Below are positions 46,933 through 59,859 of a DNA stretch of 64,000 nt, in pieces. A model generated the notes under the pieces. It saw only the letters and a program-made list of their open reading frames with translations. It did no database searches and was not told the DNA's origin. The stretch covers positions 1 to 64,000 of the forward strand of contig CAWFOU010000008.1 of NCBI GenBank assembly GCA_963817525.1, written 5' to 3'. The DNA is from an uncultured archaeon (GTDB lineage: Archaea; Thermoproteota; Nitrososphaeria; Nitrososphaerales; Gagatemarchaeaceae). Numbering within the stretch: the first letter of the stretch is position 1; every line of letters begins with the position of its first letter. The position numbers and the translations under genes were made by a program.

Positions 46933-49059
46933 TCAGGCGGGTTGACGAGAGGGTGGGGAGACCTCCTCGACAGCGTGCAGCGGATGGACGACCTTCAGGC
47001 CCAGGCCGTCGGAGATCTGCATCGAGCAGACGCTGCTCTCGGTTGCCACCAGCTTGCGCCCGCTCTCCCTGAAGAGGCGGAAGAGGTGGTCCCCGACCTG
47101 CATCGAGAGGTTGTATCCCAGGTCGCCGTGCTTCATCCCGAAGGTCCCCGCCATCCCGCAGCAGGTGCCGTTCTCGACTACCTGGACCTTGTAGCCCGCA
47201 GCGATGAGGAAGTCGATGGCCGGCCTCCCTCCCGACACCGACCGCTCGTGGCAGGGGATGTGGAAGCCTATGGCTTCCTCCGTGGGATACGCTGGCTTCA
47301 GCTGGAGGCTGGCGAGCCTGGGCTGCACGAACCCGAAGAACGGGAAGCTCATCTCGCGCGACCTCTCCGCGAGCTCGCCGGGGACGAGTGTGGGGTAGAC
47401 CTCCCTCAGCATGTAGACCGCCGTCGGCTCAGTGGAGACCACGGAGTACCCTTGGTCGAGGTACTTTCTCAGGGAGTCCAGGTTGCTCTTGGCGACTGAC
47501 GTGGCCTTGGAGAGGTTCCCGTAGGAGATGTAAGGCATCCCGCTCCACTTTAGGTTCGGGACCTCCACCTTGTAGCCCAGCGCGACGAGCATCCTCACCG
47601 CCCTGACCCCGAGCTGCGGGTCGTTGTAGTCGGCGTAGACGTCGGGGAAGAAGACCACCTTCCCAGCTTCCCCGGTCCCGTTGCCGAGGGGCTTGAGCCT
47701 CGCCCTGAGCCTCTTCCTCGAGAAGGCTGGCAGCGTCCGCCTCTTGTCCACGCCGACCAGCGACTCCATCACGGCCCTGGTCGCCCCCCGTCGCAGGAGC
47801 CAGTTCGAGGCGGGGGCGGTCGCGCTCGCGACCTTGGCCAGGGTCTCCGAGGCCATGAAGAAGTCGTTGACGAGGAGCTGGCCGTTCTCGTCGACGTCCT
47901 CCTCCTTCACCTTGGCGATCATCATGGGGATGTTGATGTCGACGGGGCAGATCTCCTTGCAGAGCCCGCACGAGACGCAAAGGTGCGCGAACGCGGCCTT
48001 GTCCAGCCCGTGCACCTCGGCCGTCCAGGGGATCCCGATGGGGCCCGGGTAGATGTACCCGAAGGTGTGGCCTCCCGCGATTCCGTAGGTGGGGCAGACG
48101 TTCATGCACGCCCCGCACCTGATGCAGTTCAGGGCCTCGGAGAACCAGGGGTCGTCCCTCATCGCCGACCTGCCGTTGTCCAGGATGATTACGTGGTACT
48201 CCCTCCCCTCAGTGGAGCCCGCGAGGGGGCCGTGCTGGGTGATCACCGAGACGTAGACCGTCATGTTCTGGCCGGTGGCGCTCGCGCTATGCCCCTTCAC
48301 GAGGTAGGCGGCGTCGGTCCACTTGGGGACTATCTTCTCCATCCCGATTAACACCAGGTGGATCTTCGGGAGGCTGGTGACCAGCCTGCCGTTGCCCTCG
48401 TTCGTCTCTATCACTATCGAACCCGTCTCGGCCACCCCGATGTTGGCCCCGGAGACCCCGATGTCGGCCGTGAGGAAGAGCTGGCGCAGGTAGGCCCTCA
48501 CGGCCTCCAGGATGGGCTGGTCCTCGGGAGGTATCTCCCTGCCGACGGCCTTTGAGACGAGCTCGGCGATCTCCTTCACCGACTTGTGCGCCGCCGGCAT
48601 CACGAGGTGCACCGGGGTCTCCCCCGCGACTTGGATGATCAGCTCCCCGAGGTCGGTCTCGACCGACCGTATCCCGACCTTGTCCAGCTCGTGGGTGAAC
48701 TCTATCTCGTCCGACGTGAGGGACTTGGCCTTTACTATCAGCTTCGCGTCGACCCTCTTGGAGAGCTCCTCGACGTAGCGCATAGCGTCGGCACCGGTCT
48801 TGGCGAGGAAGACCTGTCCGCCGTTCTTCCGGACGTTCTCGGCGAACTCCTCGACGAGCCGCGGGTTCGCGACCGCTCTAGTCTTCAGGGCCTTGTTCGA
48901 CTCCTTGATGGCGTGGATGTCGAGCTGCTTCTCCTTGGCGAGGAGGGCCGCCCTGTTTGCCCTGGCCTTTGTCATCGAGTTCCAGAACTTCTCCGAGGAC
49001 TCCTTGTCGTTGAGCGAGCGCTTGAGCTTGTCAAGCAGCGCCTGCCTGCTGCTGGTCAT
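46933..49059 (-). CDS. LutB/LldF-like Fe-S protein fused to CCG (GlpC/GlcF-like) domains
   Basis: ETDLGELIIQ, NEGNG, CIRCGACMNVCP, CVSCGLCKEICP, HIPCH, CCGMAG. Confidence 0.88.
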   Translation of the reverse strand: MTSSRQALLDKLKRSLNDKESSEKFWNSMTKARANRAALLAKEKQLDIHAIKESNKALKTRAVANPRLVEEFAENVRKNGGQVFLAKTGADAMRYVEELSKRVDAKLIVKAKSLTSDEIEFTHELDKVGIRSVETDLGELIIQVAGETPVHLVMPAAHKSVKEIAELVSKAVGREIPPEDQPILEAVRAYLRQLFLTADIGVSGANIGVAETGSIVIETNEGNGRLVTSLPKIHLVLIGMEKIVPKWTDAAYLVKGHSASATGQNMTVYVSVITQHGPLAGSTEGREYHVIILDNGRSAMRDDPWFSEALNCIRCGACMNVCPTYGIAGGHTFGYIYPGPIGIPWTAEVHGLDKAAFAHLCVSCGLCKEICPVDINIPMMIAKVKEEDVDENGQLLVNDFFMASETLAKVASATAPASNWLLRRGATRAVMESLVGVDKRRTLPAFSRKRLRARLKPLGNGTGEAGKVVFFPDVYADYNDPQLGVRAVRMLVALGYKVEVPNLKWSGMPYISYGNLSKATSVAKSNLDSLRKYLDQGYSVVSTEPTAVYMLREVYPTLVPGELAERSREMSFPFFGFVQPRLASLQLKPAYPTEEAIGFHIPCHERSVSGGRPAIDFLIAAGYKVQVVENGTCCGMAGTFGMKHGDLGYNLSMQVGDHLFRLFRESGRKLVATESSVCSMQISDGLGLKVVHPLHAVEEVSPPSRQPA

Positions 49060-49685
49060 CTCCCCCCTGCCCCCCCTTGCCAGTCGAGGATGATGGCGTG
49101 GATCGTGTGAGGCCCGTGCACACCGTAGAGGAGCCTCATCTCGATGTCCCCAGTCTTGCTCGGGCCTGAGATGAAGGAGACGATGGGCTTCCTGGAGCCG
49201 GGCGACGCCTTGACCAGCTCCCCGACCATTGGGAGCGCCTCGGCGAGGTCTCGGAGGATGCTGGAGCGCTCCAGCAGCGCGACGTGGATTATCGGGAGCG
49301 AGGAGGCGAGCTTTGCCGAGTCATCGTAGACCACCTCGAGCATGGCCCCCTCGAGCGCCACCCCGTTGACGGCCCACGTCACCCCGGCGTCAGCGGCGGC
49401 GAGCACCCCGACCGCCTCGCTGGGCCGCCCGTTCTGGAGGTCTTCGACGTAGTCCGCCTTCAGGCCGGTGAGCGCGGCGCCGACCGCCTCGGCGTATTGG
49501 GGTGGCACCCCCGCCACCACGACGGACTTGCAGCCCGCCTTTGACAGGATGGTGCGCAGCGCCTCGGCGGTCTCGGCCTCGTCCTTGGCCATGTGGGGCT
49601 CGACGTGAAGGTCCCGCAGAGAGCTAAGAAACTTCTGGACGACCTCGGCCGCGGGTCCGCTCTGCGCCCCGGTTGGTCTCTCCAT
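49056..49685 (-). CDS. LutC/LldG-like LUD domain protein
   Basis: FISGPSKTGDIE...GVHGP. Confidence 0.9.
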   Translation of the reverse strand: MERPTGAQSGPAAEVVQKFLSSLRDLHVEPHMAKDEAETAEALRTILSKAGCKSVVVAGVPPQYAEAVGAALTGLKADYVEDLQNGRPSEAVGVLAAADAGVTWAVNGVALEGAMLEVVYDDSAKLASSLPIIHVALLERSSILRDLAEALPMVGELVKASPGSRKPIVSFISGPSKTGDIEMRLLYGVHGPHTIHAIILDWQGGAGGR

Positions 49686-49791
49686 TTGTTGGCGCACTCG
49701 CCGGCGCGCGGCGCTTTAAATGCGCCGCGGTCGAGCTTTCGGCAGGTGTCGTCCGGGCGTTTGAGGCTTCGTCGCAATATTCATAAACGCC

Positions 49792-50283
49792 GTGAAACGA
49801 CCGAATATTCTCGTGAGCAAGAGACTAAACACTCAGAAGTACGCTGTGAGCATGCCGGAATTATGGAACAACTCTGAGATGCTCATGAGCGAGGTTCCCG
49901 CGCTCCTAAAGGCCGCGGAGAACACCTCCTATGAGGGAAGGACGTTCACCTACGCGAGGGGAGGCCCCGGTGGGGTGCTCGCCTTCAGGGAGGCCTCGGA
50001 AAAGTCTTGGATAGCGCTATCACAGGTGACCGACATCCTGGTCGAGAAGCTCCTTCACAAGGTCCCGAAGGGATCCTACGAGCGCAGGCTGGCCCTCAGG
50101 GAGATAGAGGCAAAGTGGCCAGAGGTCGCCTCGAACCGCTTCTACGACCGGTACGCGGCGCTGACCAGCTACCTGAGGAACAACCAGGTCTACCTGACCG
50201 CGCTCGACCTCGAGATGTTGAGGTTCGAGGTCGGCAGGCTCAACGTCTACATCACCGACGTCAAGGGCGTCATCTCAAAGTAA
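49792..50283 (+). CDS. PaREP1/HEPN-fold-like protein
   Basis: FREASEKSWIA motif; start uncertain. Confidence 0.5.
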   Translation: MKRPNILVSKRLNTQKYAVSMPELWNNSEMLMSEVPALLKAAENTSYEGRTFTYARGGPGGVLAFREASEKSWIALSQVTDILVEKLLHKVPKGSYERRLALREIEAKWPEVASNRFYDRYAALTSYLRNNQVYLTALDLEMLRFEVGRLNVYITDVKGVISK

Positions 50284-50409: not shown

Positions 50410-51093
50410 TTAGACGGTCAGCGAAGGCTTTTCCTTCTTCGCCTTGTTCCAGTCGTCGAGGAAGCGCTTGAGGCCGATGTCGGTCAGCGGGTGCAGGAAC
50501 ATCTTCTCCATGACGTCAGCAGGCATCGTGCCGATGTCAGCCCCCAGCTTGGCGGCCTCGAGCACGTGGATCGGGTGTCTGATGCTGGCCACTAGGATCT
50601 CGGTCTTGAACTTGTACGTCGGGCTGTTCTTTATCTCGACGAGGTCACTGATCAAGGCCATACCGTCTTGGCCGATGTCGTCCAGCCTGCCGATGAACGG
50701 GCTGATGTAGGACGCTCCGGCCTTCATGGCGATTAGCCCCTGGACGGCTGAGAAGATCAGCGTCACGTTGATCGGTATTCCCAGCGAGCTGAGGGTCTTC
50801 GTCGCCTTCATCCCCTCGGGGATCATCGGGATCTTTACGACCACGTTCTCCGCCCAGGACTTGTTGCGCTTGCCCTCCGCCACCATTCCATCGTAGTCGG
50901 TGGAGATGACCTCGGCGCTCACCGGGTGGGGGTAGACCTCCTTGGCGATGGCCTTGATGGTCTCCTCGAAGTCGGCGCCTTCCTTGACGATCAGCGAGGG
51001 GTTGGTCGTGATGCCGTCGACGAGGCCCATCGCGTTGTACTTCTTGATCGAAGCAAGGTTCGCAGTGTCGAGATAGAACTTCAATTCGAGCAC
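50410..51093 (-). CDS. tal: Transaldolase (FSA/TalC family)
   Basis: YLDTAN, GITTNPSL, VVKIP, NVTLIFS, SPFIGRLDD. Confidence 0.93.
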   Translation of the reverse strand: MLELKFYLDTANLASIKKYNAMGLVDGITTNPSLIVKEGADFEETIKAIAKEVYPHPVSAEVISTDYDGMVAEGKRNKSWAENVVVKIPMIPEGMKATKTLSSLGIPINVTLIFSAVQGLIAMKAGASYISPFIGRLDDIGQDGMALISDLVEIKNSPTYKFKTEILVASIRHPIHVLEAAKLGADIGTMPADVMEKMFLHPLTDIGLKRFLDDWNKAKKEKPSLTV

Positions 51094-51131
51094 ACTTCCC
51101 AGATTTTTCTAATAAAGCTATCGGCGTTCGG

Positions 51132-52091
51132 CTACCGCTTCATCGCGATGGCCTGTCGGGCGGCTTCCTCGATGTGGGCGGCTGTAAGGCCGTACTTGTT
51201 GAGGAGCTCCTGGGCCTCGCCGCTCTCGCCGAAGGTGTCGTTGACGCCCACCCTCTTGAGAGGTATCGGATACTGGTCGGTTAGGACCTCTGCGACAGCG
51301 GAGCCCATCCCTCCCATGACGTTGTGCTCCTCCGCGCTGACCGCCGCGCCGCACTTTCTCGCGTATTTTAGTATCGTCTCTTGGTCGATCGGCTTTACCG
51401 TGTGGATGTCGATCACGCTCGCCTGGATGCCCTTGGTCGCCAGCGACTCTGCCGCCCTCACCGCTTCCGGGAGCATTATGCCGCAGCCGAAGAGCGCGAC
51501 GTCGCTCCCCTCCCTGACGACGTTGGCCTGGCCTAGCTTGTACTCGAAGCCGCCCTCGTAGACGATGGGGGTGTTGGAGCCCTTGATCACTCCCCTGGTT
51601 ATCCTGACGTAGAACGGGCCGGGGATGTCCGCGATGGCCTTGATTATCGCTTTGACCGCGACGGCGTCCCCAGGGACGACGACGCGCATGTGGGGCACCA
51701 CCCTCATGAGGGCGATGTCCTCGACCTGCTCGTGCGAGCCTCCGTCAGGCCCGACGGTGATCCCTGCGTGAGAGCAAACCAGCTTGACGTCGAGGTCGGC
51801 ATAGCAAAGCATGTTTCGTATCTGGTCGACGCACTTGCCGGGAATGAAGATCGCGTAGGTCCCCGCGAAGGCGACCTTCCCCCCGAACGCGAGGCCCGCG
51901 GCCACACCGACGAGGTTCTGCTCGGCGATCCCGAGGTTGAAGAACCGGTCTGGGTACTTGGCCCCGAACATCCCCGACTTCATGGACTCTGTGGTGTCCG
52001 CTCCGAGCACGACGATGCGAGGGTTGCTCGCTCCTAGCTCTACCAGCGCTTCGCCGTAGGCGTTGCGCATCGCTCCCATCTTCTCTAGCAT
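51132..52091 (-). CDS. Transketolase, C-terminal subunit
   Basis: GIAEQN, GPDGGSHE, AEEHNVMGGMG. Confidence 0.93.
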   Translation of the reverse strand: MLEKMGAMRNAYGEALVELGASNPRIVVLGADTTESMKSGMFGAKYPDRFFNLGIAEQNLVGVAAGLAFGGKVAFAGTYAIFIPGKCVDQIRNMLCYADLDVKLVCSHAGITVGPDGGSHEQVEDIALMRVVPHMRVVVPGDAVAVKAIIKAIADIPGPFYVRITRGVIKGSNTPIVYEGGFEYKLGQANVVREGSDVALFGCGIMLPEAVRAAESLATKGIQASVIDIHTVKPIDQETILKYARKCGAAVSAEEHNVMGGMGSAVAEVLTDQYPIPLKRVGVNDTFGESGEAQELLNKYGLTAAHIEEAARQAIAMKR

Positions 52092-52092
52092 C

Positions 52093-52815
52093 TTAAATCG
52101 CCCTCCCTCCGGCTTCCTGTCTGGCCTTTTCCCTGAGTAACCCGACCGCCTTTATCGGGTCGGGCTTGTAGTAGACTCCTGCTCCCGCGACCAGCACGTT
52201 ACCGCCGCGCTTCACCACGTGCCCCAGGGTCTCCAGCTCGACCCCGCCGTCTATCTCGATGTCGATGGGGAGGCCCTTGTCGTTGAGCATCTGGGTTATC
52301 TTCTCGAGCTTGGGCAGGACCTCCATTATCATGGTCTGCCCGCTGAAGCCCGGGTTGACGGTCATCACGCACAGCGTGTCGAGCTTGTCCAGCCTCTGCT
52401 CGACCCAAGCTGGCATGTCGGTGGCGGGTTTGAGGGCGAGCCCCATCACCTTGCCCTTCGCGTGGACCTTGGAGTAGATCGCGTCGAAGCGCTCGCCCGT
52501 GAGCGCCTCCGCGTGGAAGCAGAAAAGGTCCGAGCCGGCGTCCAGGAACTTGTCGACGAACTTCTCCGGCTCGTCGATCATCAGGTGGGTGTCGAACTTC
52601 ATGTCGGTCTTCTTCCTCAGGGCCTTTACCGTGCCAGGCCCGAAGGTGATGTTGGGCGCGAAGTGGCCGTCAATCACGTCGAGGTGCACCTGGTCAGCCC
52701 CGCCCTTGACCGCGACCTCGAGCGCGGCAGCGAAGTTGGACTGGTCCCCGCCCAGGATGGAGGGGGCAATCTTGATCTTCCGCTTTATCGTCTCGAGTGG
52801 CATCGTCTTTTCCAC
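52093..52815 (-). CDS. rpe: Ribulose-phosphate 3-epimerase
   Basis: IAPSIL, HLDVIDGHFAPNITFG, DTHLMI, MTVNPGFSGQ, EIDGGV. Confidence 0.95.
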   Translation of the reverse strand: MEKTMPLETIKRKIKIAPSILGGDQSNFAAALEVAVKGGADQVHLDVIDGHFAPNITFGPGTVKALRKKTDMKFDTHLMIDEPEKFVDKFLDAGSDLFCFHAEALTGERFDAIYSKVHAKGKVMGLALKPATDMPAWVEQRLDKLDTLCVMTVNPGFSGQTMIMEVLPKLEKITQMLNDKGLPIDIEIDGGVELETLGHVVKRGGNVLVAGAGVYYKPDPIKAVGLLREKARQEAGGRAI

Positions 52816-53640
52816 CTACTTCAGCTCCTTGTAGATGTCTTCCATCTTTTCCTTGGTGGGCGCCGTGCCGTGGTAGGTGGGCGACCACTCCATGAAAGAG
52901 ATGCCCTTGCCCTTTACGGTGTGGGCGATGATCATCGTGGGCCTGTTCTTCACCATCTCCGCCGTGTCGAAGGCCTCTATCAGCTGCAGATAGTCGTAGC
53001 CGTCGACCTCTATGACGTTCCAGTTGAAGGCGCGCCACTTGGCCGCAAGCGGCTCGAGAGGCATGATCTGCTCGGTGAGGCCGTCCTGCTGGATGCCGTT
53101 CCTGTCGATCATGCCCACGAGGTTGTCGAGCTTGAACTTCGAGGCCGACATCGCAGCCTCCCAGACCTCGCCCTCGCCCTGCTCCCCGTCTCCCATCAGG
53201 ACGTAGGTCCTGGTGGGCCTCCCGTCGAGCCTCGCCGCGAGGGACTGTCCCACTCCCACGGAGAGCCCGATCCCCTCGGAGCCCGCGGGCATCTCAACCC
53301 CGGGGATGTCCATGTCTGGGTGCCCTTGGAGGAGCGCCCCGAGCTTCCTCAGGGACTTTAGTTCGGACATGGGGAAGTATCCGGCCTGCCCGAGGATAGA
53401 GTAGAGCAGCGGGGCCCCGTGTCCCTTGCTGAGGATGAACCTGTCCCTGTCAGGCCACTTTGGGTTCTTGGGGTCGTGCCTGAGCTTGTAGAAGTACAGG
53501 GTGACCAGAAGCTCCACCGCGGAGAGGGAGCCTCCCGGGTGCCCTGATCCTGCCTCCGCGAGGGTCTCCAATATCACCTTGCGGGTGTTGCGCGAGATGT
53601 CCTGAAGCCTAGTGATTTCCTGCGAAGTAGCCATTCCCAT
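52816..53640 (-). CDS. Transketolase, N-terminal subunit
   Basis: SGHPGGSLS, DRFILSKGH, GDGEQGEG...DRN (TPP motif). Confidence 0.95.
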   Translation of the reverse strand: MGMATSQEITRLQDISRNTRKVILETLAEAGSGHPGGSLSAVELLVTLYFYKLRHDPKNPKWPDRDRFILSKGHGAPLLYSILGQAGYFPMSELKSLRKLGALLQGHPDMDIPGVEMPAGSEGIGLSVGVGQSLAARLDGRPTRTYVLMGDGEQGEGEVWEAAMSASKFKLDNLVGMIDRNGIQQDGLTEQIMPLEPLAAKWRAFNWNVIEVDGYDYLQLIEAFDTAEMVKNRPTMIIAHTVKGKGISFMEWSPTYHGTAPTKEKMEDIYKELK

Positions 53641-53642
53641 CT

Positions 53643-54689
53643 CTATCGCCTCACCGGCATCTGGGAGACGCGGCTGAGGAAGTCACCCATCGACTCTAGC
53701 CGTTTTTCCAAGTCCTCTATCGTCAGCGTCGACGTCCTGGGCTTCTCGCTCCGGACCGTCCCCGCGATGTTGCTGAGGCAGGCGGCCTCCGTCGCCGTGC
53801 CCCCTGCGGCCACCGCGAGGGAGAAGACCCCGGTCATAACGTCCCTCACGCCGACCTTGTTGAAGAAGCTCTTCCTGCCGAATGGGAGCGGAAGCGTGGT
53901 TATCTGGTCGCGGTCGAAGACGGTCATCCCCTCCTCTCCGCGCGTGATCACGATCCCCTTGCAATCGAGCCTCCCCAAGAGGTTCACGCCCATGTTCCTG
54001 AGGCTGGTCTCGTTCACCATCGCCATCTGGGTGGCGTGGGTGGCCTCGCTGAGGTTCGACTTTAGGTAAGTCACGCCGCTGTAGTCCATGTAGTGCCTGT
54101 CCTTCGGCTGGGCGACCACGATCTTGCCCGCCTTCCTGGCGGCCGCGACCACGGAGCTGATTAGCGAGGAGGTGACGACTCCCCTGTCGTAGTCCGAAAA
54201 GACCACCGTGTCCACGTTGGGGATCTTTCCCTCGGCCGCCGTGGCCAGGGACTTCGTTATCGGGAGCGCGACCTCCTTCCTGACCTCCTGGTCGATGCGC
54301 AGATAGTGCAGCCTGTTGACCATGATCCACGTACGGAGAGAGCTGGGCCTGGTCTTGTCGACCACGATCCCCTCCACGCTGACCCCGTTCCTTGCGAGGT
54401 CATCCTTCAGCCAGACGCCATAGTTGTCGTCGCCGACCATCCCTATGACGGAGACCTGCCCGCCGAGCGACGCGACCTCGTTGGCCAGGTTGGCAGCCCC
54501 GCCGGGGAGAAGCGTCTCGCCGACATAGTCTGCCGCAGGCACAGGGGCTTCTCGCGCGAGCTTCCTCGCCGAGACCTCCACGAACCTGCTCACGAGGAAG
54601 TCGCCGAGGACTAGCATGCGGCTGCCTTGGAATTTCTTGAGGAGTCCGTTCAATCCTTCATAGGAAAGACCCGGCAAGTCCTGAACCAC
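53643..54689 (-). CDS. PfkB/ribokinase-family kinase, HldE(RfaE) kinase-domain-like
   Basis: LVLGD, REAPVP, PGGAANLA, LRIDQE, SDYDRG, ITRGEEGM; anion-hole motif is KVGVRD instead of GAGD. Confidence 0.85.
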   Translation of the reverse strand: MVQDLPGLSYEGLNGLLKKFQGSRMLVLGDFLVSRFVEVSARKLAREAPVPAADYVGETLLPGGAANLANEVASLGGQVSVIGMVGDDNYGVWLKDDLARNGVSVEGIVVDKTRPSSLRTWIMVNRLHYLRIDQEVRKEVALPITKSLATAAEGKIPNVDTVVFSDYDRGVVTSSLISSVVAAARKAGKIVVAQPKDRHYMDYSGVTYLKSNLSEATHATQMAMVNETSLRNMGVNLLGRLDCKGIVITRGEEGMTVFDRDQITTLPLPFGRKSFFNKVGVRDVMTGVFSLAVAAGGTATEAACLSNIAGTVRSEKPRTSTLTIEDLEKRLESMGDFLSRVSQMPVRR

Positions 54690-54878
54690 GGGGCGCCAAA
54701 TTGCAGGCCTGTTTTAAGCTTAACGAAGCGGAGCCCTGCCAGCCGCGTCCCTCCGCGGGACTCTGTCTTTTTTTGGCCCGCTGAATTGGTTCGACTGCTG
54801 TCGTTTGTCGGACGTTTCAAATCGCTTCACGACGATGAAAACATAAATAACCTATGACGCGACGAAAAAAGGGTTTAC
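54690..54878. promoter_or_regulatory. Divergent promoter region between the kinase/tkt/rpe/tal operon and RuBisCO
   Basis: GAAAAC-ATAAATAA (BRE/TATA-like) about 30 bp before the ATG at 54879; TTTTAAGCTTTAA about 25-30 bp before the start at 54689. Confidence 0.55.
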
Positions 54879-56306
54879 ATGACAACAGAAGCCATGGTTG
54901 AAAGGAGATGGAGCGCCCCGAGCGTAGAGCACGACAGAGGGGACATATTCTCCACCACTCCCGACAAGGTAGACGTCGACAAGAACGTTCTGGCGACATT
55001 TTTCATCACGTGCGACCCTAGGGTCACCATCGACCAGGCCGGAGTCATCATCGCGGCGGAGCAGTCCGTAGGCACGTTCACGGACGTCTCTACGGCGACG
55101 GACCTCTCCACGAAGACAGCGGCCAAGATGTACTCTTACAAGTACGAAGACCCGTCAGGCGCGATGAAGCACTCGGGCTGGGTCAAGGTCGCGTTCCCGA
55201 CCTTCCTCCTCGACCTGGACAACAGGGGGATCCCCGACCTGTTCACCTTCGTGACAGGAAACTGGATGGGTTTCACCCCGATTCCAAACTGCAAGTGGAT
55301 AGATTTCACCCTCCCCAAGGACGTCTTGAAGCTCTTCAAAGGGCCAAAGTTTGGCGTCGAGGGCCTGAGGGAGATCGTCGGCACAACGAAGAGCCGGCGC
55401 CCCCACGTGGGGATCACAATCAAGCCCAAGATGGGCGTGACCGACCAGGGAGCAGCCCAGCAGTTCTACGACGCAGCGATGGGCGGCGTCGACACCTTCA
55501 AGGACGATGAGACCTACTTCAACCAATGGTGCTCGCCGCTCCTCGACAGGGTCGCCAAGGTCTACGAGGCGCTCGACAAAGCCAAGTCGGAGGGCGCCCA
55601 CCCAGGGGGCGAGTACATGTACGCGCCTCAGGTCACGGTGGACTCTGAAAAGTCGCTCGAGGTCGCGGACAAGATGATCGCGCACGGTGCCAGGGGCCTG
55701 ATGCTCAACATCATGGCGGCCTGGTACCCCGCGCTAAGGGCCCTCGCGGAGGACCCGAGCATCAACGTCCCGATCCACCTCCACAGGGCGTCGCACGCCT
55801 CCCTCACCCGCCACCCGAGGCATGGGATCAGCTTCAAGGTCATCGCCGGGCTGGGCAGGGTCGCTGGCGGGGACATGATCCACGTAGGGACCGCCAGAGG
55901 CAAGCTGGGAGACGCGATAAAGTTCGTCGAGATCCCCGAGATCATGGACGAGATGCAGCGCCCGAACGGGCACCTAAAGCCCATGATGGGCGTCGCCTCG
56001 GGAGGGCTCACGCCGAACAACTACCATTACTCCATAGACTTGATGGGCTTGGACATCCAGCTCCAGAACGGGGGCGCGGTCCACGGGCACCCGTGGGGCA
56101 CCAAGGCGGGCGCTACCGCTGCTAGGCAGGCAGTCGATGCGTACATGAAGAAGATCCCCCTTGAGGAGTACGCCAAGACCCACGCAGAGCTAGAGGCCTC
56201 TCTCCAGTTCTTCGGGCAAAAGTACGCCGTCGCGTCCGCGATGACCGTCGTACCAGAGCTCGGCAAGAAGGAGAGCGACTATAAGCACATGTTCCGCTCG
56301 GAGTAG
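54879..56306 (+). CDS. rbcL: RuBisCO large subunit, form III-like, catalytic residues intact
   Basis: AAEQSVGT (E60/T65), GN (N123), IKPK (K175/K177), FKDDE (K201/D203/E204), HR (H294/R295), HVGT..GKL (H327/K334), SGG, GGAVHGHP. Confidence 0.92.
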   Translation: MTTEAMVERRWSAPSVEHDRGDIFSTTPDKVDVDKNVLATFFITCDPRVTIDQAGVIIAAEQSVGTFTDVSTATDLSTKTAAKMYSYKYEDPSGAMKHSGWVKVAFPTFLLDLDNRGIPDLFTFVTGNWMGFTPIPNCKWIDFTLPKDVLKLFKGPKFGVEGLREIVGTTKSRRPHVGITIKPKMGVTDQGAAQQFYDAAMGGVDTFKDDETYFNQWCSPLLDRVAKVYEALDKAKSEGAHPGGEYMYAPQVTVDSEKSLEVADKMIAHGARGLMLNIMAAWYPALRALAEDPSINVPIHLHRASHASLTRHPRHGISFKVIAGLGRVAGGDMIHVGTARGKLGDAIKFVEIPEIMDEMQRPNGHLKPMMGVASGGLTPNNYHYSIDLMGLDIQLQNGGAVHGHPWGTKAGATAARQAVDAYMKKIPLEEYAKTHAELEASLQFFGQKYAVASAMTVVPELGKKESDYKHMFRSE

Positions 56307-56322
56307 AAAAGGGGCGATAAGA

Positions 56323-56493
56323 ATGAAGAACCACACAAAGGGCGACATCTTCTGCGAGTGCGGCGCGTGCCCCCACGACAACGCGCTCCAGTGCGCGGAC
56401 TATGGGTGCACCTGCTGCATCGCGGGGATGTCGGGCAAGCCGTACGAGCTCCACTACCTCAAGAGCGTCGGCCCGCCCGCCACCAACTTCTGA
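56323..56493 (+). CDS. Small Cys-rich protein (56 aa), missing from the ORF track
   Basis: MKNHTKGDIFCECGACPHDNALQCADYGCTCCIAGMSGKPYELHYLKSVGPPATNF; 16 bp after the rbcL stop, AGGGG upstream, strong GC3 bias. Confidence 0.75.
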   Translation: MKNHTKGDIFCECGACPHDNALQCADYGCTCCIAGMSGKPYELHYLKSVGPPATNF

Positions 56494-56679
56494 GACGTAC
56501 CGAATCGGGCCCAGTCTGGGCTCTCCTTCTCCATTTTTTAGAATCCCAATCAGATGCCGTGCTGGACCTTCGTAGAAAGTCGCCTGCTTTGCAAAGCCAC
56601 CGAAGGCGGTCGCACACGGGACAGAGCCCCGGCTACGGGCTGAGAAACAGGTGCGCCTGCTTCGGCTGCGAGGGGGGCG

Positions 56680-57573
56680 CTACTTCTTCTTGATCGCTTC
56701 CGCGATGACCGGCGCCACGCTCACGAAGCTTATCGGCCCCGCGAAGGTGTCGGTCCCTACCACGCCCTCTATGTTGTTGCTGTACATCAGTGGGAGGGCG
56801 TTGAGGCTGAGCACTGGGTGGGTGCACCCCACGTAGATCTTGCGAGCCCCCGCCTTCTTGACGAGGTTCGCTGCCTCCACGATGGTGTTGCCCGTGCTGA
56901 TGATGTCGTCGATGATTATGGCGTCCCTGCCCTTGACGTTGACGCCTTCGCCGCCCCTGACCTTGACTTTGACCTCGGTCGAGGAGAACCTCGTCTTCTG
57001 GAGGATCGCGTAGTCGGTCTTAATCTTCGCGGCGGCCACCTTCGCCCACTGCTCGGACTCGTCGTCGGGGCCGATGATTATCGCGTTCTTCGGCGTGAAT
57101 ATCCTGTTGATGTATTCGGCGATGTATGGGACCGCGGTGAGGTTGGTCGCGGGGATCTTGAACACTTCCTTGAGGGACGGGACCCTCTGGAGGTGGACGT
57201 CGATTGTGAATATCCTGCTAGGGCCTGCCTGCTCGAGGAGCTTGGCCACGAGGTGGAAGCTCAGCGGCTCTCCTGGGTGGAACCTGGCGTCTTGCCTTGC
57301 GTAGGCAAAGTACGGGATGACGACGCTTATCGACTTGGGGCTCGCGCTCTTGAACGCGTCCATGGTGAGCAGGTACTCCATGATGAGCTCGTCCGGCCTA
57401 CCCCCTAGCGGGTGGATGTAGACGATGTCCTGACCCTTTATGTCTTCTTCGATCTTGAGGTACTGCTCGCCGTCCGGGAACCTTTGTCTCTTGACCTTGC
57501 CAAGCTTCGCTCCGGTTAGGAGCGACGTCCTGACTGCTAGGGTCTCGCCTGCCGAACCTCCAAAGATTATCAT
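56680..57573 (-). CDS. prs: Ribose-phosphate pyrophosphokinase
   Basis: RFPDGE, PYFAYARQD, DVH, IIDDIISTGNT. Confidence 0.95.
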   Translation of the reverse strand: MIIFGGSAGETLAVRTSLLTGAKLGKVKRQRFPDGEQYLKIEEDIKGQDIVYIHPLGGRPDELIMEYLLTMDAFKSASPKSISVVIPYFAYARQDARFHPGEPLSFHLVAKLLEQAGPSRIFTIDVHLQRVPSLKEVFKIPATNLTAVPYIAEYINRIFTPKNAIIIGPDDESEQWAKVAAAKIKTDYAILQKTRFSSTEVKVKVRGGEGVNVKGRDAIIIDDIISTGNTIVEAANLVKKAGARKIYVGCTHPVLSLNALPLMYSNNIEGVVGTDTFAGPISFVSVAPVIAEAIKKK

Positions 57574-57589
57574 TTTTACTCGTTCTCGC

Positions 57590-58639
57590 TTAACGGGCGC
57601 CGGATTTCGCCTGGGCGCCTTCGGTGTACTGGTAGAGCTCCTTCATCAGCGAGAAGACCGCTCCGGGCGGCACGATGCCCTTCTCGGTGACGTAGAAGTC
57701 GATGTATTCCGGTGGGGTGACGTCGAAGACAGGGTTGCTGAACTTCACCTTGGGGTTGTTCGCGCTCCATTCCTTCGAGGCGATCTCCGTGTAATCCCTC
57801 TCCTCGATGTCTACCAATTCGCCGTTCAAGGTCTTGAAATCGAGCTTATAAGTTTCAGCGGCCACGATGAAGTTTACCCGCGCCTCGTGTGCCATCGTCG
57901 CGACCTGCGAGGTCCCGATCTTGTTCACCAAGGCCCCGTTCACCGCTATCGCGTCGCAGCCTACCACGGCCTTGTCGGCGTGTGCCATGTTCACCCTGCA
58001 GGCAGAGTCGCAGATGAGGGTGGTGTCGATCCCATAGGCCGCGAGGGCCGCCGCGGTCTTGTGGCCCTGGAACTTGGGCCTCGTCTCGTCGCAGAACACC
58101 TTGATGCCCTTGCCCATGTCGTAGGCCTTCTTCAGGATGCTCATGGCGGCTTCGCTGTTGCAGTGGGTGATGATGATGTCGCCGTTCTTGACCCGCCTTG
58201 CTCCTATCTCTCCGATGAGCTTTACGGCCTCCACGCTGGAGATGAGGAAGTCGTTCGCGGTGTTCACGGTCGCGTTCCTGATCTCCTCGACCGTGGCTCC
58301 CGACTCGAAGGAGGTCCTGCCTCCATAGAGCACGTAGTTCACGCCGTTGGGGAGGGAGACGGCGGTGGGCCTAGCAGACCTGAGCTTCTCACCGGCCTTT
58401 AGGACGAGGGCCCAGTATTCCCTGGAGTTCTTGGCCTTGGCCTCCTTCGCGTAGTCCCTGAGTGCCTGTGCGGCGTACCTCGCGATGCGGCCCGCACCGT
58501 GGACTCGCATGGACTTTAGGTTGTCATAGGCTTCGTCTACGGTGACTTTCTGGAATTCTTCCTTGCCTTCCTTTAGTGTCTCCACGTGAACCGTTTCGCC
58601 TTCATGGGAGCTTATATATGTATTACCCGCGAAATTCAT
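57590..58639 (-). CDS. Ribose-1,5-bisphosphate isomerase (eIF-2B family)
   Basis: GAGRIA, RPTAVSLPN, THCNS, ETRPKFQG, GCDAIAVNGALVNKIGT, NPVFDVTP. Confidence 0.88.
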   Translation of the reverse strand: MNFAGNTYISSHEGETVHVETLKEGKEEFQKVTVDEAYDNLKSMRVHGAGRIARYAAQALRDYAKEAKAKNSREYWALVLKAGEKLRSARPTAVSLPNGVNYVLYGGRTSFESGATVEEIRNATVNTANDFLISSVEAVKLIGEIGARRVKNGDIIITHCNSEAAMSILKKAYDMGKGIKVFCDETRPKFQGHKTAAALAAYGIDTTLICDSACRVNMAHADKAVVGCDAIAVNGALVNKIGTSQVATMAHEARVNFIVAAETYKLDFKTLNGELVDIEERDYTEIASKEWSANNPKVKFSNPVFDVTPPEYIDFYVTEKGIVPPGAVFSLMKELYQYTEGAQAKSGAR

Positions 58640-58688
58640 GTCTTACTCGTCGGCGAGAAAATTCGTCTGTTGTCGTCGGCCAGACGAC

Positions 58689-59087
58689 TCAGCCGAGCGA
58701 TGAGACCTTCATTTCGACCTGGTCCCGGATCTTCCGGACCTGCTCGATCGTCTTCCCCTTCGGGTCCTCTATCTCCCAGTCGACGAGCTTCTTCTGCATC
58801 TTGGCGAGCATCGGCTTGGGGCAGACCTCCTCCACCGAGCAGCCCATGGTGAAGACGTGGGTCGCATGGTTGATCATCTCGGTGGTAAGGAGCTTGGGCT
58901 TGGCCGAGGACACGTCGATCCCCTTCTCCAGCATCGCCTTGACCACGGTGGGGTTGACGGCTTCGGTGGGCATCGTCCCCGCGCTGGTCGCAATCAGGCC
59001 CCGCTTCTTCGCGAAGGCCTCTGCCATCTGGCTCCTGCCCGCGTTGTGGACGCACACGAAGAGGTAAGAGCCCTCAGACCTTGGCAT
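58689..59087 (-). CDS. arsC: Arsenate reductase, LMW-PTP type
   Basis: CVHNAGRSQMAE, TMGC...CP, DWEIEDP. Confidence 0.9.
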   Translation of the reverse strand: MPRSEGSYLFVCVHNAGRSQMAEAFAKKRGLIATSAGTMPTEAVNPTVVKAMLEKGIDVSSAKPKLLTTEMINHATHVFTMGCSVEEVCPKPMLAKMQKKLVDWEIEDPKGKTIEQVRKIRDQVEMKVSSLG

Positions 59088-59859
59088 GCTTTCTCCTCCA
59101 GACACCGAATAATAAACCAGCAAGCCCTGCGCCGACCAGTGGACCTATCAGATAGATCAGCAGGTTCCCGAGATATCCCGAGGACAACGCAGGACCTAGG
59201 CTTCTGGCGGGATTGAAAGAGGCCCCCGTGAGCGGACCGATCGCAAGGATCAGGACGAACAGCGTCGCGCCCACCAGGAGAGCCTGGGCCGCGGCCCTCT
59301 TGAGGAAGTGCGAGGCGGTGAGAGCGGCGGCCGCGAGGACGAAGGTGCCCGCCACTTCGAGGGAGACGCCTTCGGCCTGGGAGATCCCGAACCCGAGCTT
59401 CGTCGACCCCAGGGACGCGTTGGATGCCATGCCGCTGAAGATCGCCTTGAGGGTAAGGCCTGCCGAGAGCGCGCCGAGAAGCTGGAAGAAGACGTAGGGG
59501 AAGACAAGCTCCTTCTTGAGCTTCCCCGAGAGTGCGCTCGCGAATGTTATCGCCGGATTGATGTGCGCGCCGGAGTGCTTCCCTATGAGGAGGATCATCG
59601 CGCCAACGGTAAGACCGAAGACCAGGGCGACCGTCGCCAGTTGCTCGAACGACGAGAGGTGAGGAACCAAGGGAACGAGCACGACCGAACCGGCGCCGAA
59701 GAATACGAGGAGATAGGTTCCCAGCATCTCGGACAGGCAGCGTCGGCGAAAGTCCGACACCGCCAGCGGGGCTCCCTTCCCTAGCGAAGGGTTCAGGCTC
59801 GGCCCTGCCCCTGAACGGTCGGCGGGGGGCGGATGCAGCAACGACACGTGCGACAACAA
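59074..59859 (-). CDS. MIP/aquaporin channel (true start probably near 59760)
   Basis: SGAHINPA and GASFNPARS. Confidence 0.92.
   Translation of the reverse strand: MLSHVSLLHPPPADRSGAGPSLNPSLGKGAPLAVSDFRRRCLSEMLGTYLLVFFGAGSVVLVPLVPHLSSFEQLATVALVFGLTVGAMILLIGKHSGAHINPAITFASALSGKLKKELVFPYVFFQLLGALSAGLTLKAIFSGMASNASLGSTKLGFGISQAEGVSLEVAGTFVLAAAALTASHFLKRAAAQALLVGATLFVLILAIGPLTGASFNPARSLGPALSSGYLGNLLIYLIGPLVGAGLAGLLFGVWRRKHAKV

What the first reader, a model, noticed from the sequence alone, without database searches (positions are those of the whole stretch)
50410..58639. RuBisCO cluster with pentose-regeneration enzymes and R15P isomerase but no PRK: candidate PRK-independent Calvin-like cycle in an archaeon
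Seen: a RuBisCO retaining every catalytic motif shares a divergent promoter with a tightly packed kinase-tktN-rpe-tktC-tal operon, and is flanked on the other side by ribose-1,5-bisphosphate isomerase and PRPP synthase. No phosphoribulokinase or AMP/nucleoside phosphorylase is in the window. Known: archaeal form III RuBisCO normally serves nucleoside salvage (AMP phosphorylase, then R15P isomerase, then RuBisCO, as in Thermococcus kodakarensis). The form III, transaldolase-variant Calvin cycle of Thermodesulfobium acidiphilum uses PRK. Inference: Tkt/Tal/Rpe regenerate pentose-5-P, which enters via R15P (directly by the kinase, or via PRPP) and is isomerised to RuBP. That would close a CO2-fixing cycle or electron sink rather than a linear salvage route.
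Basis: partly seen in the sequence, partly recalled or inferred. Interest (0 to 1): 0.9.

Follow-up and report, generated by a model that had tools for sequence, protein, structure and literature searches.

The report
Thaumarchaeal RuBisCO cluster without phosphoribulokinase
A soil archaeon carries a RuBisCO gene set next to sugar-rearranging genes but no usual enzyme for making RuBisCO's substrate; the likely bypass through PRPP has already been proposed in print for related archaea.

Summary
The 95%-complete genome shows no PRK and no AMP phosphorylase.

The region is two units:
- An old five-gene operon, PfkB kinase-tktN-rpe-tktC-tal. It occurs in 79 of 80 loci in Nitrososphaerales and Bathyarchaeia, and only 7 of those 80 have RuBisCO nearby.
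- A patchy RuBisCO module: rbcL, a 56-aa Cys-rich ORF, e2b2, an extra Prs copy and a HEPN-like ORF. It is in 7 of 22 other genomes of the genus (8 of 23 with the window's own) and is shared with a second family that has no kinase.

So the kinase is not RuBisCO-specific. The comparative evidence favours R5P to PRPP to R15P to RuBP.

This PRK- and AMPase-free route, closed through the non-oxidative pentose pathway, was proposed by Reji & Francis and taken up by Aylward & Santoro. Sheridan et al. reported the rbcL/e2b2/prs adjacency in this family.

A closed autotrophic cycle is doubtful. No class I, II or V FBPase was found, and only a divergent PGK.

Verdict: real, sensibly read, not new.

The parts
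49792..50283 (+). orf163: a small helical protein with a HEPN/PaREP1-like fold and no Pfam family. It co-occurs with this RuBisCO lineage.
   Evidence: - No Pfam or NCBIfam hit.
- 116 homologues at 54% identity or more, all unnamed or named 'hypothetical'.
- AF2 model pLDDT 83.5.
- Best Foldseek PDB hits are HEPN domains, but none reaches E <= 0.001; the best is 0.058.
- ESM Atlas lead: PaREP1, score 0.92.
- A homologue lies next to rbcL in G037, G402 and G374.
- Among the 80 kinase loci it is present in 6 of 7 with rbcL and 0 of 73 without.
50410..51093 (-). Transaldolase / F6P-aldolase family gene (tal/fsa), last gene of the pentose operon.
   Evidence: PF00923 at 192 bits; TIGR00875 at 289 bits, above the cut-off of 246.
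51132..52091 (-). Transketolase C-terminal half (tktC).
   Evidence: PF02779 and PF02780.
52093..52815 (-). Ribulose-phosphate 3-epimerase (rpe).
   Evidence: PF00834 at 199 bits; NF004076 at 202.5 bits, above the cut-off of 165.
52816..53640 (-). Transketolase N-terminal half (tktN).
   Evidence: PF00456 at 184 bits.
53643..54689 (-). PfkB-family kinase, first gene of the pentose operon. It resembles heptose-7-phosphate kinases but its substrate is unknown. It is not specific to RuBisCO.
   Evidence: - PF00294 at 77 bits. TIGR02198 (rfaE domain I) at 225.6 bits, below the cut-off of 345.
- Best solved relative is the D-beta-D-heptose 7-phosphate kinase 4e84, at 107 bits.
- The family has G-x-R-D where 4e84 has G-A-G-D, and a conserved C-terminal PVRR-type tail.
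- tktN lies directly downstream in 79 of 80 loci.
54690..54878 (.). 189-nt spacer between the divergent kinase operon and rbcL, with A/T-rich TATA-like stretches about 25-35 nt before each start.
   Evidence: Read by eye from the sequence; not tested. In G020 rbcL points the other way, so all eight genes lie on one strand (L014).
54879..56306 (+). Divergent archaeal form III RuBisCO large subunit.
   Evidence: - PF00016 and PF02788.
- TIGR03326 at 284.6 bits, below the cut-off of 497.
- Best solved relatives are archaeal RuBisCOs 2cwx and 1geh, at 223 and 203 bits.
- Catalytic columns are invariant or nearly invariant.
- It sits in a long-branched clade (100/100 support) among archaeal sequences.
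- It is 72-78% identical to the RuBisCO of family f14.
56323..56493 (+). 56-aa Cys-rich ORF (7 Cys, pattern CxCxxCxH...C....CxCC) 16 nt after rbcL, followed by a T-run.
   Evidence: - Conserved right after rbcL in 6 other same-genus genomes at 75-93% identity.
- Also in G037, of another family, at 54% identity and 6 nt after rbcL.
- No Pfam family.
- Only 2 small homologous clusters among 1.84 billion representatives.
- Sequence read.
56680..57573 (-). Extra ribose-phosphate diphosphokinase (PRPP synthase) copy that travels with e2b2.
   Evidence: - TIGR01251 at 283 bits, above the cut-off of 113. NF002095 at 282.5 bits, below 296.
- Best solved relative is the ribose-phosphate pyrophosphokinase 1u9y, at 196 bits.
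- Only 29.7% identical to the genome's other Prs at C7:213457.
- 72% identical to the e2b2-linked Prs of G037 and 46% to that of G040.
57590..58639 (-). Ribose-1,5-bisphosphate isomerase (e2b2), 16 nt upstream of prs.
   Evidence: - TIGR00511 at 376.5 bits, above the cut-off of 314.
- Best solved relatives are R15P isomerases 5yfj and 3a11, at 307 and 301 bits. Methylthioribose-1-P isomerases reach at most 128 bits.
- Matches of this type (375-387 bits) occur in 9 of the 10 RuBisCO-bearing genomes among the 41 searched. The tenth, G040, is cut at a contig end. None occurs in the other 31.

Best explanation
The region joins two units of different age.

Unit 1 is an ancestral non-oxidative pentose-phosphate operon (PfkB kinase, split transketolase, Rpe, Tal). 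It works with or without RuBisCO.

Unit 2 is an acquired RuBisCO module:
- rbcL plus a 56-aa Cys-rich ORF;
- the e2b2-prs pair;
- a HEPN-like ORF.

This module is shared with a second thaumarchaeal family.

Proposed flow, with each step marked as supported or inferred:
1. Tkt, Tal, Rpe and RpiA interconvert F6P, GAP and pentose phosphates into ribose-5-P. All genes are present.
2. The extra Prs copy makes PRPP. Family membership is shown; activity is inferred.
3. PRPP loses its beta-phosphate to give ribose-1,5-bisphosphate. No gene is assigned. Candidates are one of 12 Nudix hydrolases, spontaneous hydrolysis, or an uncharacterised cluster protein. This step is inferred.
4. e2b2 isomerises R15P to RuBP. 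The family assignment is strong.
5. The form III RuBisCO adds CO2 to give two 3-PGA. Catalytic residues are kept; activity is inferred.

The most likely role is a CO2-incorporating shunt. It would carry pentose or hexose carbon to 3-PGA in a heterotroph or mixotroph without needing PRK or AMP phosphorylase. A self-sufficient autotrophic cycle is less likely. The kinase feeds or drains the pentose pathway and is not the RuBP-forming step.
For: 1. No PRK and no AMP phosphorylase in the 95%-complete genome.
2. RuBisCO, e2b2 and Prs family tests.
3. Co-inheritance. The rbcL cluster is present in 7 of 22 same-genus genomes, with the same gene set in every one. e2b2 matches of 375-387 bits occur only in RuBisCO-bearing genomes among the 41 searched.
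4. The cluster Prs is an extra copy. G000 has three Prs-family genes. The cluster copy is 28-36% identical to the housekeeping copies of this order but 72% and 46% identical to the e2b2-linked copies in two other families.
5. In family f14, G402 has pgk-prs-e2b2 / rpe / tkt / tal-epimerase-rbcL-orf163-like. G374 shows prs-e2b2-rpe on one contig and tktN-tal-rbcL-orf163-like on another. G367 has prs-e2b2 / tktN-tktC ... tal, with no rbcL found. The association with pentose genes therefore recurs in another gene order and without any kinase.
6. RpiA, a GAPDH-family gene, a PGK-family gene, an IMPase-family gene and 12 Nudix genes are present.
7. One metatranscriptome assembly holds a 1631-nt contig covering rbcL and the small ORF at about 94% likeness. 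Shorter contigs lie on tal, tktC, rpe, tktN and e2b2. This is a weak hint only: they are contigs of a relative, and DNA carry-over is possible.
8. The same route was reasoned independently for marine relatives.
Against: - No enzyme for PRPP to R15P is identified. No Nudix gene lies in the cluster.
- The Prs type is not RuBisCO-specific at greater distance. In a 401-genome class sample, 26 genomes had a match at E <= 1e-60. These included all 8 sampled genomes of family f22, none of which has a RuBisCO match. G367 of f14 also has it without RuBisCO. It may therefore be an ordinary Prs that simply came along with the module.
- The PRPP route costs two ATP equivalents per RuBP (established stoichiometry of Prs: ATP to AMP).
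- Nucleoside phosphorylases exist: MTAP and a uridine-phosphorylase-like protein. A salvage input through ribose-1-P is therefore not excluded.
- RuBisCO scores below the curated type III cut-off and has not been assayed.
- The genome is a MAG with 8.75% contamination and about 5% missing.
Confidence: 0.55

Rival explanations
1. A closed, autotrophic, PRK-independent Calvin-like cycle. 3-PGA is reduced to triose-P and rebuilt to F6P. Tkt, Tal, Rpe and Rpi regenerate R5P, which returns to RuBP via PRPP and R15P.
For: - All pentose-rearranging enzymes, Prs, e2b2 and RuBisCO are present.
- GAPDH-family and PGK-family genes are present.
- In G402 a pgk lies in the same cluster.
- The cycle was proposed for marine relatives.
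Against: - No match in G000 to FBP aldolase/phosphatase (PF01950), class I FBPase (PF00316), GlpX (PF03320) or class II FBP aldolase (PF01116).
- The only aldolase candidate is a DhnA-type protein at 175 bits against a cut-off of 430.
- The canonical PGK (326 bits or more) is found in 1 of 8 RuBisCO-bearing genomes of the genus. The rest have only a match of about 150-175 bits (7 of 8 carry one; G018 has none).
- The module is patchy: 7 of 22 genomes.
- Sheridan et al. describe the family as organotrophic (passages).
Confidence: 0.15
2. The PfkB kinase is the RuBP-forming route. It would phosphorylate C1 of ribose-5-P to give R15P, or of ribulose-5-P to give RuBP as a non-homologous PRK. This is by analogy with heptose-7-P kinases, which phosphorylate O1 of a sugar that already carries a terminal phosphate.
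For: - Best family and structure matches are heptose-7-P kinases: TIGR02198 at 225.6 bits and 4e84 at 107 bits.
- No gmhA or rfaE domain II partner scores over its cut-off in any of 41 genomes. The gmhA-like pattern (g1 and G037 only) does not follow the kinase. A heptose role is therefore unsupported.
- The kinase lies beside rbcL in 8 genomes.
- The family-specific G-x-R-D motif and basic tail could bind an extra phosphate. This is inference.
Against: - The operon exists without RuBisCO or the 375+-bit e2b2 in most relatives. The kinase is in 25 of 41 genomes and rbcL in 10 of 41.
- 72 of the 79 kinase-tktN loci have no rbcL within 7 kb, including 8 Bathyarchaeia loci.
- No kinase was found in the RuBisCO-bearing genomes G037 and G040, and none lies in the f14 loci of G402, G374 and G367.
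- No substrate evidence of any kind.
Confidence: 0.07
3. A linear nucleoside or nucleotide salvage route, like the pentose bisphosphate pathway. Nucleoside phosphorylases give ribose-1-P. A PfkB kinase makes R15P, then e2b2 and RuBisCO yield 3-PGA. The neighbouring Prs is incidental.
For: - MTAP (351 bits, above the cut-off of 306) and a uridine-phosphorylase-like protein.
- Three PfkB-family loci in the genome.
- e2b2 and RuBisCO are the two shared enzymes of that pathway (family tests).
Against: - No AMP phosphorylase.
- The cluster kinase scores 32.8 bits against a cut-off of 330 for the ATP-dependent ribose-1-P kinase model.
- The second kinase (C1:391813) matches no kinase model over its cut-off.
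- The conserved partner of e2b2 in three families is Prs, not a phosphorylase or kinase.
Confidence: 0.12

Closest known systems
PRPP-fed RuBisCO pathway proposed for marine heterotrophic Thaumarchaeota (Reji & Francis, bioRxiv 10.1101/2019.12.22.886556; Aylward & Santoro, PMC7300363)
   Same: - Divergent form III RuBisCO, 72-78% identical to that of family f14. Two f14 genomes are only 0.8-1.0 Mb.
- R15P isomerase, Prs and a complete non-oxidative pentose pathway.
- No PRK and no AMPase.
- Nudix or abiotic PRPP dephosphorylation invoked.
- Co-localisation of pathway genes noted (passages read).
   Different: - This is a terrestrial Gagatemarchaeum-type genome of 2.8 Mb.
- The module sits beside an older kinase-containing pentose operon.
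- The Prs is shown here to be an extra copy.
- That f14 is the marine lineage of those papers is my inference from genome size and RuBisCO likeness. It was not tested.
rbcL / R15P isomerase / Prs adjacency in three topsoil Gagatemarchaeaceae MAGs (Sheridan et al. 2023, PMC10640624)
   Same: Same family and the same three adjacent genes. [quoted passage not shown]
   Different: - The passages I read do not mention the neighbouring pentose operon, the kinase, the small ORF or orf163.
- The paper says all three genes are absent from other family members. I find a housekeeping Prs in all 41 genomes searched.
- Its Supplementary Data 10 and 11 could not be opened.
Archaeal AMP pathway of Thermococcus kodakarensis (AMP phosphorylase, R15P isomerase, RuBisCO; Sato et al. 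2007, recalled and as described)
   Same: The last two steps, R15P isomerase and form III RuBisCO.
   Different: AMP phosphorylase was tested and not found.
Pentose bisphosphate pathway and its non-carboxylating variant (Aono et al. 2015, recalled; Sato et al. 2022, PMC9700705, abstract in a search listing only)
   Same: R15P as the entry metabolite, and PfkB-family kinases in the neighbourhood.
   Different: No ribose-1-P kinase equivalog. Here a non-oxidative pentose pathway is present, which per that abstract many archaea lack.
PRK-dependent archaeal and bacterial routes: the reductive hexulose-phosphate pathway of methanogens, and the transaldolase-variant Calvin cycle of Thermodesulfobium (both recalled; the first is mentioned)
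   Same: Form III RuBisCO used for CO2 incorporation, with transaldolase in place of SBPase.
   Different: Both need PRK, which has no match here.
D-beta-D-heptose 7-phosphate kinase (rfaE domain I; PDB 4e84)
   Same: Closest family and closest solved structure of the kinase. PfkB fold, with the GG, NxxE and catalytic Asp positions kept.
   Different: - Below the curated cut-off (225.6 against 345).
- G-A-G-D is replaced by G-x-R-D.
- No heptose-pathway partner scores over its cut-off.
- Always the first gene of a transketolase/epimerase/transaldolase operon.

Membership tests
Form III RuBisCO | RuBisCO large-subunit N- and C-terminal domains | tested here: met
   PF02788 at 56 bits and PF00016 at 172 bits, both over their cut-offs.
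Form III RuBisCO | Active-site residues, including the carbamylated Lys and the metal ligands | tested here: met
   K208, D210, E211, K182, H302, R303, H335 and K342 are invariant; K184, N128 and S374 are nearly invariant, in 25 sequences. The mapping to catalytic roles is recalled.
Form III RuBisCO | Curated equivalog score (TIGR03326) | tested here: not met
   284.6 bits against a cut-off of 497.45. It still scores above form II (171 bits) and the MtnW-type models (148-196 bits).
Form III RuBisCO | Phylogenetic placement within form III | tested here: inconclusive
   It groups with archaeal sequences, some named type III or III-b by their sources. It lies on a long branch (0.61) with 100/100 support. 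No form I, II or IV references were in the tree.
Form III RuBisCO | Carboxylase activity | not testable with these tools
   Needs an enzyme assay.
Ribose-1,5-bisphosphate isomerase (e2b2) | Curated equivalog score, and closer to solved R15P isomerases than to MtnA or eIF2B | tested here: met
   TIGR00511 at 376.5 bits, above 314.1. 5yfj and 3a11 score 307 and 301 bits, against at most 128 bits for MtnA. The Cys of 'THC' and the Asp of 'G-x-D' align with the solved enzyme. Their catalytic role is recalled.
Ribose-phosphate diphosphokinase (Prs) | Family score and conserved motifs | tested here: met
   TIGR01251 at 283 bits, above 113. The NF002095 equivalog is just missed (282.5 against 296). 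Best solved relative is 1u9y at 196 bits. The FPDGE, YARQD and DDIISTG-type loops are present by eye.
Archaeal AMP pathway | AMP phosphorylase | tested here: not met
   TIGR03327 best match is 46 bits against a cut-off of 535, and that match is TrpD. TrpD is the only PF00591 protein in the genome.
Calvin-Benson-Bassham cycle | Phosphoribulokinase | tested here: not met
   PF00485 gave no match at E <= 0.001 among 30 scored candidates. The genome is 95% complete.
Calvin-Benson-Bassham cycle | FBP aldolase and FBPase/SBPase for hexose regeneration | tested here: inconclusive
   PF01950, PF00316, PF03320 and PF01116 gave no match. One IMPase-family gene (139 bits) and one sub-threshold DhnA-type aldolase remain as candidates.
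PRPP-fed thaumarchaeal RuBisCO pathway (Reji & Francis) | RuBisCO + R15P isomerase + Prs + Tkt/Tal/Rpe/Rpi + Nudix, without PRK or AMPase | tested here: met
   This shows gene content only. The PRPP to R15P step has no assigned enzyme.
Pentose bisphosphate pathway | Ribose-1-phosphate kinase | tested here: not met
   NF053626 at 32.8 bits against a cut-off of 330 for the cluster kinase. The other intact PfkB protein matches no model over its cut-off.
Heptose-7-phosphate kinase (HldE/HldA) | Curated score and presence of GmhA and adenylyltransferase partners | tested here: not met
   TIGR02198 at 225.6 bits, below 345. TIGR00441 and TIGR02199 gave 0 of 41 genomes over their cut-offs.

The most novel reading that the evidence does not exclude
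Two uncharacterised proteins follow this RuBisCO lineage: the 56-aa Cys-rich ORF right after rbcL, and the HEPN-like orf163. They could be dedicated partners of a form III RuBisCO. One possibility is a metal- or redox-dependent regulator or assembly factor. Another is the missing activity that turns PRPP into ribose-1,5-bisphosphate. No accessory protein of a form III RuBisCO is known to me (recalled, not searched).
Probability: 0.2. Interest if true: 0.65.

Novelty: new member of a known kind. Interest (0 to 1): 0.42.

Why it matters
How archaea with form III RuBisCO but no PRK and no AMP phosphorylase obtain RuBP is still an open, untested question. So is whether abundant non-ammonia-oxidising Thaumarchaeota fix or merely re-incorporate CO2.

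This locus does not open the question. It does offer a compact set of genes for a test-tube reconstitution: the extra Prs, e2b2, RuBisCO and two conserved unknown small proteins.

The comparative data also narrow the hypotheses. The Prs route is favoured and the neighbouring kinase is disfavoured. The kinase itself is of separate interest as an uncharacterised, invariant first gene of the pentose operon in two archaeal classes.

Tried and rejected
- Heptose pathway for the kinase. gmhA-like and rfaE domain II-like genes never reach their cut-offs, and their distribution does not follow the kinase. Rejected as unsupported.
- Contexts of the second e2b2-like gene (C7:553682, 321.8 bits) and the third Prs-like gene (C7:180311, 161.7 bits). 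Neighbours are transporters, regulators and a PQQ dehydrogenase. Nothing informative came of it. One Nudix gene lies about 2 kb from the second e2b2-like gene but matches no NCBIfam model.
- 'orf139' (58636-59055, minus strand). This is a low-complexity wrong frame. The conserved frame is 58689-59123(-), an LMWPc/ArsC-like protein. It lies beside a MIP channel and is present upstream of e2b2 in only 2 of the 5 other genomes compared, so it is not part of the module.
- Complex prediction of RuBisCO with orf163 gave 'weak support'. The score was 0.38 (runs 0.38, 0.37, 0.45) and the best of 3 controls was 0.00. The runs agree in at least 77% of contacts and the partner pLDDT is at least 82. The tool states that the mark was reached by 58 of 80 solved complexes and 2 of 110 mismatched pairs. 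It also states that a pass at 0.60 or under is more often wrong than right unless the guess was likely beforehand. I do not count it as evidence of binding.
- Reads. The RNA-run contigs leave the kinase stretch (about 53.6-54.8 kb) almost uncovered.
- Foldseek for orf163 gave no hit at E <= 0.001. The HEPN likeness is a lead only.
- aragorn's tRNA-Pyl call was not pursued.
- Literature searches. 'rfaE + transketolase + Thaumarchaeota' found 0 papers. A search for 'ribose 5-phosphate 1-kinase', 'PRK-independent' or 'phosphoribulokinase-independent' also found 0. 'PfkB + RuBisCO + ribose 1 5-bisphosphate + archaea' found nothing on this kinase.
- Supplements of Sheridan et al. and Reji & Francis (Fig. 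S1, Data 10 and 11) were not seen. They may already show the gene neighbourhoods described here.

Full report
WHAT IS THERE

The window is contig C8 of a 2.82-Mb, 15-contig assembly that is 95.06% complete and 8.75% contaminated.

On the minus strand:
- tal/fsa, 50410-51093.
- tktC, 51132-52091.
- rpe, 52093-52815.
- tktN, 52816-53640.
- A PfkB kinase, 53643-54689.

These five are packed with gaps of 38, 1, 0 and 2 nt.

A 189-nt spacer follows. Then:
- rbcL, 54879-56306, plus strand.
- prs, 56680-57573, and e2b2, 57590-58639, on the minus strand and convergent with rbcL.

Kinase homologues carry names such as Nitrososphaerota or Nitrososphaerales archaeon. The organism is therefore a non-ammonia-oxidising thaumarchaeon of the Group I.1c family.

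THE ENZYMES

RuBisCO:
- It has both Pfam domains.
- It scores 284.6 bits on the type III model, below the cut-off of 497. That is still above the form II and MtnW-type models.
- Its best solved relatives are archaeal RuBisCOs such as 2cwx and 1geh.
- In a 25-sequence alignment the active-site columns are invariant or nearly so.
- In a tree of those sequences it lies in a long-branched, fully supported clade among archaeal sequences. No form I, II or IV references were included, so the sub-form is not settled.

e2b2 is a firm R15P isomerase. It scores 376.5 bits against a cut-off of 314. It scores 307 bits against solved R15P isomerases and at most 128 bits against MtnA.

The Prs passes TIGR01251. 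Its closest solved relative is the ribose-phosphate pyrophosphokinase 1u9y. Its nucleotide- and ribose-phosphate-binding loops look intact by eye.

ABSENCES IN THE WHOLE GENOME

- PRK family: no match.
- AMP phosphorylase: the only Glycos_transf_3 protein is TrpD.

Present elsewhere in the genome:
- RpiA.
- MTAP and a uridine-phosphorylase-like protein.
- 12 Nudix genes.
- A GAPDH-family gene.
- An IMPase-family gene.

Not found:
- FBP aldolase/phosphatase, class I FBPase, GlpX and class II aldolase.
- Of three DeoC-family proteins, one is ADH synthase, one is LsrF-like, and one is a sub-threshold DhnA-type aldolase.

PGK:
- G000 has only a divergent match, at 151 bits and 26% identity to a relative's PGK.
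- Across 41 genomes, the canonical PGK occurs in 1 of 8 RuBisCO-bearing genomes of the genus.
- It occurs in 9 of 15 RuBisCO-less ones. Three of those nine are split or partial.

TWO UNITS, NOT ONE

rbcL is present in 7 of 22 other same-genus genomes and in 2 of 16 other families sampled in the order. Every same-genus copy with enough contig shows the same eight genes. In G020 rbcL is inverted, so all eight share one strand.

The kinase is found in 19 of 22 same-genus genomes and in 25 of 41 overall. In eight RuBisCO-less genomes, three of them from other families, it still heads kinase-tktN-rpe-tktC-tal.

A scan of one genome per species gave 80 loci:
- 79 have tktN directly after the kinase. 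The one exception ends at the contig edge.
- 8 of the loci are Bathyarchaeia.
- Only 7 have rbcL within 7 kb.

The kinase is therefore an integral, older part of the pentose operon. It has family-specific features: G-x-R-D where the solved heptose kinase has G-A-G-D, and a basic PVRR-type tail. There is no evidence of a heptose pathway. Its substrate remains unknown.

THE RUBISCO MODULE

G000 has three Prs-family genes. The cluster copy compares as follows:
- 29.7% identical to the genome's housekeeping copy.
- 28-36% identical to housekeeping copies across the order.
- 72% identical to the e2b2-linked Prs of G037.
- 46% identical to that of G040.

e2b2 matches of 375-387 bits occur only in RuBisCO-bearing genomes among the 41 searched.

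In a 401-genome class sample:
- The closest Prs relatives (51-73%) are in family f14, in 4 of 4 genomes.
- The closest RuBisCOs (72-78%) are in 3 of those 4.

Against a strictly dedicated role, Prs matches at 36-45% identity are the ordinary Prs of other families. This includes 8 of 8 genomes of f22, which have no RuBisCO match.

Gene orders in f14:
- G402: pgk-prs-e2b2 | rpe | fused tkt | tal-epimerase-rbcL-orf163-like | hsp70.
- G374: the same neighbours as G402, split over two contigs (prs-e2b2-rpe; tktN-tal-rbcL-orf163-like).
- G367: prs-e2b2 | tktN-tktC ... tal.

There is no kinase in these clusters. RuBisCO, Prs and e2b2 thus join pentose-pathway genes in two families in different arrangements. 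That supports a functional link to the pentose pathway and to PRPP, and speaks against a need for the kinase.

TWO OVERLOOKED GENES

The 56-aa Cys-rich ORF:
- It starts 16 nt after rbcL and precedes a T-run.
- It is conserved right after rbcL in six other same-genus genomes at 75-93% identity.
- It is also conserved in G037 at 54% identity, 6 nt after rbcL.
- It has no Pfam family.
- It has only two small homologous clusters among 1.84 billion representatives.

orf163 (49792-50283):
- It has no family.
- It has 116 close homologues, none with a functional name.
- It has invariant Arg/Tyr-rich motifs.
- The AF2 model is confident (pLDDT 83.5).
- The HEPN likeness is only weak, with best Foldseek E of 0.058. 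The Atlas lead is PaREP1 at 0.92.
- Its homologue lies 2 nt after rbcL in G402 and next to rbcL in G374 and G037.
- Among the 80 kinase loci it appears in 6 of 7 with rbcL and 0 of 73 without.
- A complex prediction with RuBisCO gave only weak support (see Tried and rejected).

EXPRESSION

One wetland metatranscriptome assembly holds a 1631-nt contig covering 54893-56521, which is rbcL plus the small ORF. It has 96 differences. Shorter contigs lie on tal, tktC, rpe, tktN and e2b2. These are contigs of a relative, and DNA may be present in the library. This is a weak hint that the genes are expressed somewhere.

MECHANISM

The best-supported flow has five steps:
1. Pentose interconversion to R5P.
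2. PRPP formation by the extra Prs.
3. Loss of the beta-phosphate to give R15P. This step is unassigned.
4. Isomerisation to RuBP.
5. Carboxylation to two 3-PGA.

Steps 1, 2, 4 and 5 rest on family membership and co-inheritance. Step 3 is inference. Because regeneration enzymes are missing or unclear, I favour a CO2-incorporating shunt in a heterotroph or mixotroph (0.55) over a closed autotrophic cycle (0.15). Lower still are a salvage route via ribose-1-P (0.12) and a kinase-made R15P or RuBP (0.07).

WHAT IS KNOWN

- Reji & Francis (bioRxiv 2019; passages read) describe the same logic for marine Thaumarchaeota. There is no PRK and no AMPase. Prs makes PRPP, and abiotic or Nudix-mediated dephosphorylation gives R15P. 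R15P isomerase and RuBisCO follow. Cyclisation runs through the non-oxidative pentose pathway and gluconeogenesis, and the genes are co-localised.
- Sheridan et al. (PMC10640624; passages read) report the rbcL, R15P isomerase and Prs adjacency in three topsoil Gagatemarchaeaceae.
- A 2025 preprint on other non-AOA lineages finds form III-b RuBisCO with AMPase (passages read).

- The two-unit history of the region.
- The extra-copy status of Prs.
- The recurrence of the clustering in a second family.
- The exclusion of the kinase as a required part.
- Two conserved unknown partners of rbcL.

Noticed in passing
window 56323-56493 (+): A 56-aa Cys-rich ORF (7 Cys, 1 His in a CxCxxCxH...C....CxCC pattern) lies 16 nt after rbcL. 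It is conserved after rbcL in 6 other same-genus genomes and in G037 of another family. It has no family and almost no homologues elsewhere.
   Followed up: partly
window 49792-50283 (+); homologues at L019:10608-11156, L145:15823-16521, L147:1990-2517: A HEPN/PaREP1-like helical protein of unknown function co-occurs with this RuBisCO lineage in three genera. It has invariant YEGR, RGG, YDRY and RNN motifs. The G402 copy contains an internal duplication of about 55 residues, which may be an assembly artefact.
   Followed up: partly
window 53643-54689 (-) and 80 loci L153-L232: A PfkB kinase with G-x-R-D in place of G-A-G-D is the invariant first gene of a kinase-tktN-rpe-tktC-tal operon in Nitrososphaerales and Bathyarchaeia. 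Its substrate is unknown. Three literature searches found nothing on it.
   Followed up: partly
window 58689-59123 (-) and 59074-59859 (-): An LMW-phosphatase/ArsC-like gene (PF01451, 73 bits) and a MIP channel lie just upstream of e2b2. This looks like an arsenic-type pair. The ArsC-like gene is present at this place in only some RuBisCO-bearing genomes.
   Followed up: partly
G000:C7:252158-253222 and relatives: RuBisCO-bearing genomes of the genus mostly lack the canonical PGK (1 of 8 have it). They carry a divergent PGK-family gene of about 150-175 bits. In G000 it sits in a 557-aa open frame.
   Followed up: partly
G000:C7:553682-554590 and C7:180311-181291: A second e2b2-like gene (321.8 bits, just over the cut-off) and a third, insert-bearing Prs-like gene (161.7 bits) were found. 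Among the 41 genomes searched they occur mainly in RuBisCO-bearing genomes of the genus (also G022; the third Prs-like also G020). Their contexts were uninformative.
   Followed up: partly
window 46933-49697 (-): LutB-like (LUD + 4Fe-4S + CCG) and LutC-like genes flank the cluster. They are conserved beside it in the RuBisCO-bearing genomes only.
   Followed up: no
window 60219-61403 (+): An ORF with a LAGLIDADG-like domain lies between the MIP gene and a NuoD-like gene. Homologues at 42-46% identity occupy the same place in two relatives.
   Followed up: no
L048:16645-17817 (G007): A protein with a Cas12f1-like TNB domain (TnpB-like) lies next to the pentose operon of a RuBisCO-less relative. 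An MMPL transporter is inserted between tktC and tal.
   Followed up: no
G000:C7:727580-727673: aragorn calls a 94-nt tRNA-Pyl (cta). Only 24 tRNAs were found in the whole assembly. This is probably an artefact of intron-bearing archaeal tRNAs.
   Followed up: no
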